From positions 434,001 through 498,000 of the forward strand of contig NW_026861463.1 of assembly GCF_026571515.1 (NCBI RefSeq): 64,000 nucleotides of DNA. Direction: 5' to 3'. This DNA comes from Ruditapes philippinarum. Lineage: Eukaryota. The position numbers were made by a program. Shown here one piece after another: positions 6,001 to 12,000 of the stretch. Numbering within the stretch: the first letter of the stretch is position 1; each line of letters opens with the position of its first letter.

Positions 6001-9000
6001 TTAAAAGTGTTTTAATTACCTTTACCATAAATATAGAGCCAGTCTAATATGAACATTCAAGCAAAGTTAACCCTAAAGTTGTTATTTATAGGAAACGAAG
6101 TTTTTCCATTCAGTTTAGTGTGAGAAATCATATTTAAGTACCTTTATGTAAAAATATATATCGTTGATTGATTCTTCATTAGAACCACCCTACAAAAGTA
6201 AATTTTAATTTACAATGAAGCTTTTTGTGTATTATAGAACTCTTAAATTTGAAAAATAAGATGCATATAAATTTATTGAAGCGAAAGTTAGTCGAACGAT
6301 GTAAACGTATGGCTTCTATAATTATTTGTGAAAACCTCATACTTAGCAAAGCAAAGTGATATATAGTAAGAATCAGTTTTTCTGTTTGTCCTTTCTTGTC
6401 TGAAGCCATGTAGGCGGTAATTTTCATCAATTTAATAATATATGGTATGAATAGTTGCTTGTACCAAAAATTTTTTTAAAGGATTTGATCAGTCCTCAAC
6501 ATTTATTGAAATTATTTAAAAAATATACTTAACATCAATTCAGAAGACGAGTGTTGCAAGCAAGGTCTGTCGCTCACAAATCTTAATCAGGCAGATCAAA
6601 ATTAAATACACATGCTAGTTGTTGCTGGTAAATTCCTCATTTACGCAATGGTTTTGCCACTAGCAGCTGTGCTAATATATTATACTAAGTGGATAATTTC
6701 TTAATGTAGTAAAGTATTATAAAGCAATTTTGTTAATGTAGTAAAGTATTAAAGAAATTTTGATTGTATAGTATCGGCATTTTGCTTCAAGAACACAAAG
6801 GAGGAGATGGAAGGTCAGAAAAATATATTTCCTGGGGACTAATTTTAGAGATCTGTTGAGGTCATTTTTTGTAAACTAAACAATATGGCAAAGGTAAAAA
6901 TAGATTTTTTTAGACTCCACTTCAAAATAAAGTTATTCAGTAAAATATGGGTAGACGGATTTTCCAAACTACACTCCAAAATAAAGTTATTCAGTAAAAT
7001 ATTGGTATATCGATTTTCCAGTTACCAAATCTAAACGACTTTATCAAGATATCATATACATAACTTAAAAAATTACAGTGTATTATATGGAAAATTTAAA
7101 TCTTTAATTGAAATGATTTAGTAATTTGTGTAATGACATAACATAATTTCCTATAAATGTTATTGATATTGAATTACTATTGGTCATTTTCTACTTTATT
7201 TACAATTATATTATTTATAGTATGTGTAAAAAAACAGCCTCATCTTTATTCCCTTACAGCTTCATCTTTATTCCCTTCATAGCGTTTATTAAGATGTGTC
7301 TGAGATCTTTTATGATTTCAAATAAATATCCACTGACAAGTTGCATATATTTTCATTCAGTGAAACAAACTCTGTTATTTTGTGTGTTCATACCGTACTA
7401 GGTCTTCATTGTTAACAAGATTTCAAGATTAAATACATCTTTATTTTTAGGAGGTGCAACCATCATTTTCAAATTCGAGGCGCGTCACAGTAAGTTGTAA
7501 AACATATCTTTTTCAAGATGCATTTCAAAAGCTGAAATTAAGGTACCAAGTATTGAGACAATTGACGATACCTTTTTCCGGATTGTATTTCCAAGATCAA
7601 GGCAAGAAACAAGCTAGGTCACAATAAACACGCAATCTAAATATCGCTGAATAATTTCTCGTATGTGAGGCCATCATCTTAATCACTTGCAACTCTCTAC
7701 AGTTATTTGATCTAAGACCAATAATGAGTCTGTAATATGTGCATAAAATTTTCTTTAAAATGTGTATGGGTTTTAGATTTCATTTAAGCTTTGGGAAAAT
7801 ATGAAAATAATTGAGTCACACACTTGCTAAATAGCATGCACAAATGTAAGTCTAAGTTTAGTTCATGTGAATCACTGTTCAAGTACGGCTTCTATTTGTT
7901 TTAGACTCCACTTTAAAATAAAGGTATTCTGTAAAATATGAGTAAATGGATTTTCCAGTTACCAAATCTAAACTACTTTATCAAGATATCATATACTTAA
8001 CTTCCTATAGATGTTATTAATATTGAATTACTATTTGTCATTTTCTATTTTATTTACAATAAATTATTTATAGTATGTGTAAAAACAGCCGTACCTTTAT
8101 TCCCTTACAGCTTCATCTTTATTCCCTTCATAGCGTTGATTAAGATGTGGTTGAATTCTTTTATGATTTCAAATAAATATCCACTGACATGTTGTATATA
8201 TTTTCATTCAGTGAAACAGACTCTGTTATTTTGTGTGTCCATATCGTACTAGGTCTTCATTGTTTACAAGATTTCAAGATTAATTACAACTTTATTTTCA
8301 GGAAGTGCAACCATCATTTTCAAGTTCGAGGTTCCTCTCAGTAAGTTTTAAAACATATCTTTTGAAAGATGCATTTCAAAAGCTGCAATTAAGGTACCAA
8401 TTACTGAGAAAACCTCTTTTCGAATTGTATTTCCAAGATCAAGGCAATAAACAAGCTAGGCGACAATAAACACGCAATCTAAATATCGCTGAAAAAATAT
8501 CAAATGTGAGACCGTCATCTAAATCACTTGTCAACTCTCTACAGTTATTTGATCTAAGACAAATAATGAGTCTGTAGTATGTGCCTAAATTTTTCTTTAA
8601 AATGTGTATGGGTTTTAGATTTCATTTAAGCTTTTTGAAAATATAAAAATGATTGTGTCACACACTTGACTAGATAGCATGCACAAATGTAAGTCTAAGT
8701 TTAGTTCATGTGAAACACAGTTCAAGTACGGCTTCTATTTGTTTTAGACTCCACTTTAAAATAAAGGTATTCAGTAAAATATGAGTAAATGGATTTTCAA
8801 AAGTTACTAAATCTAAACGACTTTATCAAAATATCGTATACATAACTTAAAAAATAACAGTGTATGGAAAAATTTTAATCTTTAATTGGAATGAATTAGT
8901 AATTTGTGTAATGACATAACATAATTTCCTATAGATGTTATTGATATTGAATTACTATTTTTCATTTTCTATTTTATTTACAATTAAATTATTTATAGTA

Positions 9001-12000
9001 TGCGTAAAAAACAGCCGTATCTTTATCCCCTTACAGCTTCATCTTTATTCCCTTTATAGCTTTGATTAAGATGTGGCTGAGATCTTTTATGATTTCAAAG
9101 AAATATCCACTGACAAGTTTCATATATTTTCATTCAGTGAAACAAACTCTGTTATTTTGTGTGTCCATACCGTACTTGGTCTTCATTGTTAACAAGATTT
9201 AAAGATTAATTACAACTTTATTTTTAGGAGGTGCAATCATTTTCAAATTCGAGGCGCGTCACAGTAAGTTGTAAAACATATCTTTTTCAAGATGTATTTC
9301 AAAAGCTGAAATTAAGGTACAAAGTAATTAGACAATTGACGATACCTCTTATCGAGTTGTATTTCCAAGATCAAGGCAAGAAACAAGCTATTATGACAAT
9401 TAACACGCAATCTAAATATCGCTGAAAAATTTCTCGTATGTGAGGCCATCATCTTTATCATTTGCAACTCTCTACAGTTATTTGATCTAAGACAAATAAT
9501 GAGTCTGTAATATGTGCATAAAATTTTCTTTAAAGTGTGTATGGGTTTTAGATTTCATTTAGGCTTTGGGAAAATATGAAAATAATTGAGTCACACACTT
9601 GCTAAATAGCATGCACAAATGTAAGTCTAAGTTTAGTTCATGTGAATCACTGTTCAAGTACGGCTTCTATTTGTTTTAGACTCCACTTTAAAATAAAGGT
9701 ATTCTGTAAAGTATGAGTAAATGGATTTTCCAGTTACCAAATCTAAACTACTTTATCAAGATATCATATACTTAACTTCCTATAGATGTTATTAATATTG
9801 AATTACTATTTGTCATTTTCTATTTTATTTACAATAAATTATTTATAGTATGTGTAAAAACAGCCGTACCTTTATTCCCTTACAGCTTCGTCTTTCTTCC
9901 CTTCATAGCGTTTATTAAGATGTGGTTGAATTCTTTTATGATTTCAAATAAATATCCGATGACATGTTGAATATACTTTCATTCAGTGAAACAAACTCTG
10001 TTATTTTGTGTGTCCATACCGTACTAGGTCTTCATTGTTTACAAGATTTCAAGATTATTTACAATTTTATTTTCAGGAGGTGCAACCGTCATTTTCAAGT
10101 TCGGAGCTCCTCACAGTAAGTTGTAAAACATATCTTTTTCAAGATGCATTTCCAAAGCTGAAATTAAGGTACCAAGTATTGAGACAATTGACGATACCCC
10201 TTTCCGAATTGTATTTCCAAGATCAAGGCAAGAAACAAGCTAGGCGAACAATAGACACGCAATCTTAACTAATATTGCTGTAAAATTTATCGTATGTTAG
10301 GCCGTAATCTTAATCACTTGCCAACCCTCTACAGTTTTTTGATCTATGACAAATAATGAGTCTGTAGTATGTGCATAAAATTTTCTTTAAAATGTGTAAT
10401 GGGTTTTAGATTTCATTTAAGCTTTGGGAAAATATGAAAATGATTGAGTCACACACTTGCTAAATAGCATGTACAAATATTAGTCTAAGCTTAGTTGATG
10501 TGAATCACTGTTCAAGTATGGTTTCTATTTGTAAATATTTGTGGAAACCATGTACTAAACAAATTGACACATGATATACGAATCTGTCCTTCTGTCTGTT
10601 CTTTCTGATTAGATAAAATGCCAAAATAAGCCATATAGGCGATACTGCTTGTAAGTAGTTTGATTTAATTAAGCGGATTATCGAATTATGTTGTTTGTAT
10701 AAAAATATGAACAGCGAGCAAGGTTCGGGTCCATAGCTCAAAATTCAAGATCAGGCACAAGGTCAAAATTTAATACACAGGCTAATTGTTGCTGTTAAAT
10801 TTTTCATGTACGCCCTATTGTGCTTCTTTTTTATTTTATTCATTTTTTATTCTACTAGCGACTGTGTTTTCAATATGTTGAAGCGAAAGATTTCTTAATA
10901 TAAAAAGGAATATGAAAAACAATGTAGTAAAGCAATCTTCATTGTTTATTATTTCATTTTGATTCTAGAGAAAACAGATGAAGAATATGAGGAAAGAAAA
11001 GATGAGAAGTAGTAAAAGTGATTCCTAAAAGAACGCCGAATACGACAAAATTGAAAATGTTCCAGGCTCGGTTTGATTTAGCCTGTTCCTGGACGGTACT
11101 GGAAAATGCAAGCTATTGTCCACGCCCCCTAGCACATGGCAATGATGAAATTGTGTTCATACGGCGTTTATCATGGAATTGTCAATTTGACACGTTAGAA
11201 AGCGGTGTGTGGTCCCCAATTAAAAATATGATTTAGAGAATATTTTATTGAGTTGTAAAGTCAAATGTTTAGAAACAAAGCATGATGTAGGAATGAATAA
11301 ATCCTGAAAAAAAAAACTAAATCAAAAATTCATAATAAAGTTTTTCAGTGCCATCAGTGGCACAGTATTGACAGCTGGATATTCTAGTTATCAAAATGCA
11401 AACGACTTTATCAAATAAGGCATGTTTATATATAACAAATTATTTATAGATATTTAGTATATATATGTAAATTCAAGTCTTTATTGGAAATAAAAGTGTT
11501 GATATAACAGTATTTCCAGCAGATGATAATGATATTGAAGTACTTTTGTTTAATGTTCTATTCTATTATCTTTATATCATTATGTTTAGTATACTTTATG
11601 TTTGTTTCAATAAATGTCCACAAAACCGTCTTCTCTGAAATTATAAAGGCTAGAGCTTAGATAGTTTGCATGACACATCATGTGGTAGATATCTAACAAG
11701 TTTCTTCAAATAATAACCCTTGGGTCAAAATTTTCCCCAAACAAGGGGAAAATGTGTTTTCCCTATATTTTATAGTAAATTCTTTAAAAAAAAACTTCCC
11801 TAAAGCTTTTAAGGTTAGAGCATAGATATTTGGCATGATAAATTACTCTACCAGGCTTGTTCAAATAATAGATTTGGGGTAAAAGTAGCCCTGTCCATGG
11901 AGACATGGGATTTCCATATGTGTATATGTAGCATTCTTTAAAATAAAATCTCTTTAAGAACTACAATGACTAAATCTTAGATATTTGGCATAAAACATTG

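What the first reader, a model, noticed from the sequence alone, without database searches (positions are those of the whole stretch)
6911..10532. Tandem-repeat-generated array of variant in-frame micro-exons in a TRIM-like gene
Seen: each of four ~0.9 kb units carries a 36-39 nt segment with a strong acceptor and GTAAGT donor, phase-compatible with the phase-0 donor at 5896. The only indel inside these segments is exactly 3 nt (unit 3), while the surrounding sequence has arbitrary indels. The peptides differ at their ends (SRRVT, SRFLS, SRRVT, SELLT). Units alternate A-B-A-B, so the dimer itself was duplicated. Inference: a copy-number-variable exon cassette that diversifies a Ser-rich tail by combinatorial or mutually exclusive splicing.
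Basis: partly seen in the sequence, partly recalled or inferred. Interest (0 to 1): 0.7.

Follow-up and report, generated by a model that had tools for sequence, protein, structure and literature searches.

The report
Duplicated tail exon in clam gene
A 0.9 kb piece holding the last coding exon of a Manila clam B-box/coiled-coil gene has been copied four times in a row, so short in-frame exon copies can be spliced one after another; this is an ordinary, young tandem exon duplication with no sign yet of a selected function.

Summary
Four tandem units (6909-10532) are 89-92% identical. Each carries a 36-39 nt, phase-0, open segment between a strong acceptor and GTAAGT.

The window matches Ruditapes philippinarum. 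RefSeq model XP_060554713.1 ("TRIM25-like", P0004) is 100% identical to exon 2. It continues with the unit-1 segment, then the unit-2 segment, then reads through the unit-2 donor for 42 more codons to a stop overlapped by AATAAA. Two of the four segments are therefore already annotated as exons, used in series.

Each segment is the 5' part of a 55-65 codon open frame present in all four units. The only indels inside that frame are 3 and 9 nt. I read each unit as a copy of a terminal exon with an internal donor.

Nothing shows selection:
- The segments vary more than their flanks.
- pN/pS is 0.85-2.1.
- The tail has no homologue and no confident fold.

Mutually exclusive splicing is contradicted by the model and has no mechanistic support. 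I could not check transcripts or copy number in individuals.

This is a new member of a known kind, of modest interest.

The parts
2565..2872 (+). Coding exon 1 of the B-box/coiled-coil gene. It starts at ATG 2565 and ends at the donor AG|GTAATA, leaving two bases of a split codon. The RefSeq model starts at the in-frame ATG 2595.
   Evidence: Sequence; Pfam zf-B_box 5.6e-08 plus a weaker ANCHR-like B-box match; tblastn of P0004, P0001 and P0002.
5290..5896 (+). Coding exon 2. It holds the end of B-box 2 and the coiled coil. The donor is GAG|GTAAAT in phase 0. Without splicing, the frame ends four codons later (VNNL, stop at 5909-5911).
   Evidence: It is 100% identical to P0004 residues 94-295. 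A long helix is predicted at residues 110-208.
6320..6792 (+). Segment X in the intron just before the array. It is an old, diverged copy of the DNA that follows the array.
   Evidence: Colinear blastn matches at 70-78% to 10533-10969.
6909..7899 (+). Unit 1 (A type). It begins with an internal 54 nt doubling at 6914-7020.
7900..8742 (+). Unit 2 (B type).
8743..9674 (+). Unit 3 (A type).
9675..10532 (+). Unit 4 (B type).
7451..7489 (+). Short form of the unit-1 exon (13 codons). It equals residues 296-308 of the RefSeq protein.
7451..7627 (+). Long form of the unit-1 exon: a 58-codon open frame plus its stop. AATAAA at 7623 overlaps the stop.
8302..8469 (+). Long form of the unit-2 exon: 55 codons plus the stop. 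It equals residues 309-363, the C-terminus of the RefSeq protein. Its short form is 8302-8340. AATAAA occurs at 8446 and 8465.
9228..9425 (+). Unit-3 copy: short form 9228-9263 (12 codons, 3 nt deletion) and a 65-codon open frame. It is not in the RefSeq protein. The AATAAA at the end of the frame is lost.
10077..10268 (+). Unit-4 copy: short form 10077-10115 and a 63-codon open frame. It is not in the RefSeq protein. The AATAAA at the end of the frame is lost.
10533..10969 (+). Segment X', the old copy of X that directly follows the array.
11329..11592 (+). Degenerate relic of the first roughly 300 nt of a unit. I found no relic of the exon part.
   Evidence: 68% over 228 columns to 7012-7223, plus short matches.

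Best explanation
The window is Manila clam (Ruditapes philippinarum) DNA. It holds a RING-less gene with two B-boxes and a coiled coil. A stretch of about 0.9 kb from the 3' part of this gene has been tandemly duplicated to four copies. That stretch carried an acceptor, a terminal coding exon of about 55 codons, its stop and a poly(A) signal. The copies were later scrambled by unequal crossing-over or gene conversion. The terminal exon has a strong 5' splice site (GTAAGT) after codon 13. With several copies in a row, this internal donor can splice in phase 0 to the next unit's acceptor. Each unit can therefore act as a 36-39 nt internal exon (short form) or as the last exon (long form, cleavage after AATAAA). 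The annotated mRNA is exon 2, then U1 short, then U2 long. The result is a C-terminal extension with a variable number of 13-residue repeats. This tail appears to evolve without constraint and is most likely a young by-product, not a tuned diversity device.

Shown: the array, the frames, the identity to the RefSeq protein, and the lack of constraint.
Inferred: that a terminal exon was the founder, that splicing competes with polyadenylation, and that the tail is neutral.
For: - Array and mosaic.
- Species and gene model: P0004 is 100% identical to exon 2 and is XP_060554713.1 of R. philippinarum. Its residues 296-308 equal 7451-7489, and residues 309-363 equal the contiguous 8302-8466.
- Open frames of 58, 55, 65 and 63 codons start at the acceptor in U1-U4.
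- Indels inside the shared 55-codon frame are 3 and 9 nt. Outside it, 2 of 15 gap runs are multiples of three. By my arithmetic, the chance that both inner indels are multiples of three is about 0.04.
- Under random substitutions on a star tree, all four frames stay open in 6.6% of 5000 trials. Shared ancestry makes the true figure higher.
- AATAAA overlaps the stop in U1 (7623) and U2 (8465).
- The acceptor and donor motifs are kept in all four units.
- Signals like these micro-exons are rare elsewhere in the window: 3 on both strands.
- Neutrality: the segments have 9/36 variable columns against 14-16% in the flanks. Variable sites by codon position are 11/9/7 of 51 each, and pN/pS is 0.85-2.11 over six pairs.
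- The 58-residue frame finds only P0004 among 5.8 billion proteins, a single candidate ('longer' lengths).
- Relatives lose alignment after the coiled coil.
- The tail has pLDDT below 50 at residues 281-334 and 339-363.
Against: - I saw no transcript data. XP_ records are computed models, and I could not see what evidence backs this one.
- The substitution pattern equally fits DNA that is not coding at all.
- Open frames of this size arise by chance in these AT-rich units. An unrelated 84/83-codon frame lies at 7147-7401 and 8001-8252, with no Pfam match for the U1 copy.
- The indel and open-frame statistics are weak (p about 0.04 and at least 0.07).
- Before the duplication, an internal donor in a terminal exon would have had no partner acceptor. 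The founder may instead have been an internal micro-exon with a downstream last exon that I did not identify.
- AATAAA is common in this DNA: 13 AATAAA and 6 ATTAAA in 5897-11300.
Confidence: 0.55

Rival explanations
1. The array is a plain non-coding tandem duplication in the last intron or the 3' flank. The exon-like signals are fortuitous, and the RefSeq tail is a prediction artefact. The real protein ends just after the coiled coil, for example at VNNL (stop 5909-5911).
For: - There is no purifying selection: the segments vary more than the flanks and pN/pS is about 1-2.
- The tail is an orphan and has no confident fold.
- The paralogues P0001 and P0002 and other relatives have short, unrelated tails rich in I, F and N that do not align.
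- Chance open frames of 83-84 codons occur in the same units.
Against: - The founder signal is rare by chance.
- The indels inside the frame are 3 and 9 nt, against 2 of 15 multiples of three outside.
- The stop is overlapped by AATAAA in U1 and U2.
- An annotation pipeline could have stopped four codons after exon 2 but placed two 39 nt steps instead. To my knowledge, which I did not check here, such short exons are usually placed from transcript alignments.
Confidence: 0.25
2. One reading: a regulated, copy-number-variable cassette that diversifies the tail by combinatorial or mutually exclusive splicing, possibly under diversifying selection in an immune-type gene family.
For: - All four units keep their splice signals and open frames.
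- Changes cluster in the last five codons of the segment: 6 of 15 columns vary, and 35 of 824 windows reach that.
- pN/pS is above 1 in 5 of 6 pairs, higher than in the two other frames.
- A B-box orthogroup is listed among the bivalve expansions (PMC8382680, one table passage seen).
Against: - The annotated model uses two segments in series, so choice is not exclusive.
- No exclusivity mechanism was found: lengths are multiples of three, introns are 812-887 nt, sites are uniformly GT-AG, and docking/selector pairing is at chance level.
- The counts are too small to separate pN/pS from 1 (sd 1-4, nd 8-16.5 per pair).
- U3 and U4 lie beyond the annotated stop.
- No relative shares the tail.
Confidence: 0.1
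3. Part of the copy number is an assembly artefact: two haplotypes of a shorter array laid end to end.
For: One unit-length stretch (about 7411-8240 against 9188-10010) is only about 1-3% diverged over most of its length. I recall that range as plausible for clam alleles.
Against: - No N run or contig end lies nearby.
- The rest of the dimer differs by 8-15%, and a patch at columns 580-754 differs by about 10%.
- The units differ by several indels.
Confidence: 0.07
4. The unit is a dispersed repeat (a satellite or a transposon-borne tandem repeat) that happens to sit in this gene.
For: Bivalve genomes hold many short scattered arrays linked to mobile elements (PMC8268682 and PMC5139131, listing and start of abstract only). 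An older diverged copy of flank plus unit start lies just downstream.
Against: - No other copy exists in the 64 kb window.
- Rfam finds no family in 5800-12600.
- No protein other than P0004 carries the frame.
- There are only four copies, in one place and on one strand.
Confidence: 0.03

Closest known systems
Tandem exon duplication within a gene (surveyed by Ivanov and Pervouchine 2022, PMC9013439; I read the introduction and discussion)
   Same: A stretch of gene with an exon and its flanking intron is copied head to tail. The copies keep their splice sites and phase. The paper states that such duplications also affect terminal exons and UTRs.
   Different: There are four copies of a very short, lineage-specific segment with no detectable constraint. 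The copies are used in series in the one annotated model, not as alternatives.
Mutually exclusive exon clusters (Dscam1, 14-3-3 zeta, MRP; named in PMC9013439)
   Same: An array of homologous exons that arose by tandem duplication.
   Different: Those clusters include one exon and only one. Choice is enforced by competing RNA pairings, steric limits, incompatible splice sites or frameshift. None of these was found here, and two copies are joined in the model.
Tandemly duplicated 3' variable regions or terminal exons, for example Drosophila PGRP-LC (as described in the discussion of PMC9013439)
   Same: There are several copies of a 3' terminal exon region. Which copy ends the mRNA decides the C-terminus.
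   Different: PGRP-LC variants encode folded recognition domains chosen through RNA structures. Here the tail is short and unfolded in the model, and no such structures stand out.
Composite internal/terminal exons, where a 5' splice site competes with a downstream poly(A) site (immunoglobulin mu secreted/membrane switch; recalled, not checked in a paper here)
   Same: One exon can be spliced at an internal donor or read through to a stop and poly(A) signal. That is what the RefSeq model implies: U1 is spliced and U2 is read through.
   Different: Here the next acceptor is a copy of the exon's own acceptor, so use of the donor repeats the same peptide.
Schistosome micro-exon genes (PMC10526429; listing and start of abstract only)
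   Same: Very short exons separated by long introns.
   Different: Micro-exon genes are built almost wholly of micro-exons and encode secreted proteins. Here four copies of one segment hang on the end of an ordinary two-exon gene. There is no sequence relation.

Membership tests
TRIM / RBCC proteins | N-terminal RING finger | tested here: not met
   Pfam finds no RING in exon 1, in P0004 or in the relatives P0001, P0002 and P0005. No + strand open frame of 70 codons or more lies upstream of 2460. The gene is TRIM-like in name only.
TRIM / RBCC proteins | B-box zinc finger(s) | tested here: met
   zf-B_box at 5.6e-08, 33.3 bits against a cut-off of 24.1. A second, ANCHR-like B-box match falls below its cut-off (23.7 against 27).
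TRIM / RBCC proteins | Coiled coil after the B-box | tested here: met
   The model has helices at 110-208 and 215-238 with pLDDT 80-91. This is a prediction only.
Tandem exon duplication | Adjacent homologous exons on one strand of one gene, with their own splice sites | tested here: met
   The four copies are 89-92% alike and keep their acceptor and donor. Two of the four are exons in the RefSeq protein. The exon status of U3 and U4 is untested.
Mutually exclusive exon cluster | One and only one copy in a mature mRNA | tested here: not met
   P0004 holds the U1 and U2 copies in series. This rests on one computed model; no reads were seen.
Mutually exclusive exon cluster | A mechanism that forbids double inclusion (frameshift, steric block, U2/U12 mismatch, docking/selector pairing) | tested here: not met
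   Lengths are 39/39/36/39 nt. Introns are 812-887 nt (from the coordinates). All sites are AG...GTAAGT. Pairing of the exon-2 donor region with the 120 nt before each acceptor is matched or beaten by 12.7% of 300 control windows.
Copy-number-variable exon cassette | Unit number differs among individuals | not testable with these tools
   There is one assembly only, and no reads or other clam genomes were on hand.
Coding exon under selection | Fewer changes than the flanks, an excess at third positions, pN/pS below 1 | tested here: not met
   9/36 variable columns against 57/402 and 44/281 in the flanks. Variable sites by codon position are 11/9/7. pN/pS is 0.85-2.11.
Intronic snoRNA or other structured-RNA host array | A known RNA family in each unit | tested here: not met
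   Rfam finds 0 matches at E up to 1 in 5800-12600 on both strands.
Dispersed satellite or transposon repeat | Copies at other loci | tested here: inconclusive
   There are none elsewhere in the window. The rest of the genome could not be searched.

The most novel reading that the evidence does not exclude
The array is a working device in a clam immune-type B-box gene. Unit number varies among individuals. Competition between splicing and polyadenylation at each unit sets how many 13-residue modules the protein carries and which of four end variants closes it (RRVT, RFLS, ELLT, each with a different read-through tail). The cluster of replacement changes at the module's end reflects diversifying selection. 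That would make it a serial, countable tail-length code built from one duplicated terminal exon, distinct from one-of-many exon choice.
Probability: 0.08. Interest if true: 0.55.

Novelty: new member of a known kind. Interest (0 to 1): 0.27.

Why it matters
This is a clean, young example of how tandem duplication of a terminal exon that holds an internal donor creates new in-frame internal exons and a repeat-bearing protein tail. The duplication happened before any selection is visible. That is useful as an illustration of exon birth, and as a caution for annotation of the fast-evolving bivalve B-box families. The tails of these models may be accidents of local repeats. Unless transcripts and population data show regulated or variable use, it does not change what is known about splicing or TRIM biology.

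Tried and rejected
- Docking/selector RNA pairing. Inverted repeats in 5800-11400 are short, AT-rich and 71-94% complementary (25 of 49 pairs listed). The one that caught my eye pairs the exon-2 donor (5892-5911) with sites about 15-30 nt before the acceptors. It did not exceed controls: 12.7% of 300 control windows had a mean duplex energy as low, and 21% matched the weakest unit.
- snoRNA or other RNA host array. Rfam found nothing.
- Conservation of the segments. They rank among the more variable stretches: 103 of 800 windows of 39 columns have 9 or more variable columns.
- Codon-level selection. No third-position excess, and pN/pS is about 1-2. The two other frames gave pN/pS mostly below 1, so there is no coding signature.
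- Homologues of the tail. The only hit is the RefSeq protein itself.
- Homologues of exon 2. Two hits at 'near' lengths among 152 candidates. Two at 'longer' lengths among 1428 candidates. Ten at E up to 0.001 in the 1.84 billion representatives. None of the seven representatives I fetched and read, nor P0001, P0002 or P0005, has a similar tail. P0013 and P0014 were not fetched.
- Relic of the exon part in the old downstream copy. None found.
- Pfam on the tail frames and on the 84-codon chance frame. Nothing.
- Fold of P0004. The tail is of low confidence, so no fold search was run.
- Satellite literature for this clam. 6 papers hold the three search terms; none was opened, and none of the titles concerns a 0.9 kb unit.
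Full report
What the window is. The DNA is AT-rich (GC about 0.29-0.40). It encodes a protein whose second exon is 100% identical to a RefSeq protein of the Manila clam Ruditapes philippinarum: XP_060554713.1, "E3 ubiquitin/ISG15 ligase TRIM25-like", 363 aa, here P0004. It is not human sequence. I left the three runs of N (29630-29882, 30809-31147, 58725-58861) as they are.

The gene. Exon 1 runs from ATG 2565 to 2872 and ends AG|GTAATA. Exon 2 runs from 5290 to 5896; the split codon gives ...KHR-SC..., which completes B-box 2. 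Pfam finds a B-box (5.6e-08), a second weaker B-box-like match and no RING. An AlphaFold model built on ten family members gives a confident long helix at residues 110-208. The gene is therefore a RING-less B-box/coiled-coil gene. Exon 2 ends on a whole codon (GAG|GTAAAT). Without splicing the frame stops four codons later.

The family is small. Exon 2 finds ten proteins at E up to 0.001 among 1.84 billion representatives. Named relatives come only from R. philippinarum and Mercenaria mercenaria. In the alignment of ten members, similarity ends shortly after the coiled coil and the tails do not align.

The array. Four head-to-tail units fill 6909-10532. The two-unit period is slightly better conserved (91.9%) than the one-unit period (89.0-89.9%). 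U1 and U3 share about 80 nt that U2 and U4 lack. The history is more tangled, though:
- U2 and U4 are almost identical in the first third of the unit.
- U1 and U3 are closest in the last third.
- U1 is closest to U4 in columns 580-679.
This mosaic is what unequal crossing-over or gene conversion leaves behind. The DNA just before the array (6320-6792) has an old copy just after it (10533-10969, 70-78%). That copy is followed by a relic of a unit's first 300 nt (11329-11592). The locus had therefore been duplicated once before, long ago. No other copy lies in the window.

The segments. A scan for the same kind of signal finds only three others on both strands of the window, and 0.87 per 128 kb in simulated sequence. 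The founder signal is thus not a commonplace.

The strongest evidence is external. P0004 continues after exon 2 with exactly the U1 segment (residues 296-308). It then has exactly 8302-8466 as one uninterrupted stretch (residues 309-363). That stretch is the U2 segment plus 42 codons read through its GTAAGT, ending at a stop (8467-8469) overlapped by AATAAA. The U3 and U4 segments are not in the protein.

What the units really carry. From the acceptor, the frame stays open for 58, 55, 65 and 63 codons in U1-U4. Within the shared 55 codons the only indels are 3 nt (U3) and 9 nt (U2). Outside, 2 of 15 gap runs are multiples of three. By my arithmetic, both inner indels being multiples of three has a chance of about 0.04. 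Random substitutions would keep all four frames open in 6.6% of trials on a star tree; the true figure is higher because the copies share ancestry. U1 and U2 have AATAAA on the stop, while U3 and U4 have lost it. I therefore read each unit as a copy of a terminal exon with an internal donor after codon 13. Each can be spliced on to the next unit (short form) or read through to its own stop and poly(A) signal (long form). The RefSeq model is one such path.

No sign of selection.
- The segments have 9 variable columns of 36. The figures are 57/402 upstream and 44/281 downstream, and 103 of 800 windows of the same size are at least as variable.
- Variable sites fall 11/9/7 on codon positions 1/2/3, and pN/pS is 0.85-2.11 in the six pairs.
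- Changes cluster in the last five codons: 6 of 15 columns, reached by 35 of 824 windows. The counts are small.
- The 58-residue frame has no relative other than P0004 itself.
- There is no Pfam match and no confident fold: pLDDT is below 50 for residues 281-334 and 339-363.
- An unrelated frame of 83-84 codons in U1 and U2 shows that long open frames arise by chance in these units.

Mutually exclusive splicing. The model joins two copies. The lengths keep the frame, the introns between copies are 812-887 nt, and all sites are GT-AG. A test for a docking site near the exon-2 donor pairing with a selector before each acceptor was at chance level. Rfam finds no RNA family in 5800-12600.

Comparison with what is known. 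Tandem exon duplication is common. According to the introduction and discussion of PMC9013439, it also affects terminal exons and UTRs, with PGRP-LC as a case of duplicated 3' variable regions. The present case belongs to that kind. Its particular twist is an internal donor in a duplicated terminal exon, which gives serial repeats. This is a natural consequence of the duplication and not a new mechanism. The gene model is already in RefSeq. I found no paper on this locus; those searches were not aimed at the accession.

Limits.
- No clam genome, read or transcript collection was on hand. Splice use, poly(A) sites, copies elsewhere in the genome, the orthologous locus in other clams and unit number in individuals all stayed unchecked.
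- I did not ask for supplementary files of papers; none seemed to bear on the claim.
I left out the step of joining exons into a model of my own. The only full-length sequences I used were database proteins returned by the searches.

Verdict. This is a young tandem duplication of a tail exon, already reflected in the reference annotation, with no evidence of function. It is of modest interest.

Noticed in passing
window 13767-15336 (+): An intronless-looking gene. It starts MASNV at 13767 and continues in a second, overlapping frame at 14071-15336. It has DUF3504 (2.3e-29), a phage-integrase-type catalytic part (5.3e-10) and a QRICH1 domain. This is the make-up of Crypton-derived genes (the Crypton link is recalled). 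The two frames overlap at 14071-14129, so there is either a short intron or a frameshift.
   Followed up: partly
window 25854-27455 (+): A single open frame of 533 codons that matches the carboxylesterase family end to end (3.5e-122).
   Followed up: partly
window 31151-31402 and 32270-32683 (+): Two exons of an Arf-family small GTPase (1.1e-20 and 1.1e-11). The first abuts the N run 30809-31147, so an earlier part of the gene may be hidden there.
   Followed up: partly
window 28193-29045: A degenerate TG-rich minisatellite (periods 26/52 and multiples, 64-85% matches). It causes a sharp GC-skew spike of 0.277.
   Followed up: no
window 6320-6792 versus 10533-10969; 11329-11592; 11630-11999: An old diverged copy of the array's left flank sits on its right, followed by a relic of a unit start. 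After that comes an unrelated stretch with two internal copies of about 165-200 nt (66.5% alike). Both flank copies hold an acceptor-like site followed by a short open frame (near 6781 and 10970, read by eye). I did not test these as possible last exons.
   Followed up: partly
window 7147-7401 and 8001-8252 (+): Open frames of 84 and 83 codons inside U1 and U2, upstream of the segments. They are broken in U3 and U4. The U1 copy has no Pfam match. I took them as chance frames.
   Followed up: partly
window 2565 versus 2595: The RefSeq protein starts at the second in-frame ATG (2595). The paralogue models P0001 and P0002 align from the first (2565). The model may be short by ten residues at its N-terminus.
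   Followed up: no
window 6914-7020: A 54 nt stretch at the very start of unit 1 is doubled (88% matches). It is absent from the other units.
   Followed up: no
exon 1 (2565-2872) versus exon 2 (5290-5896): CpG observed/expected is 0.25 in exon 1, 1.29 in exon 2 and 0.65 in the array. I have no explanation for this.
   Followed up: no
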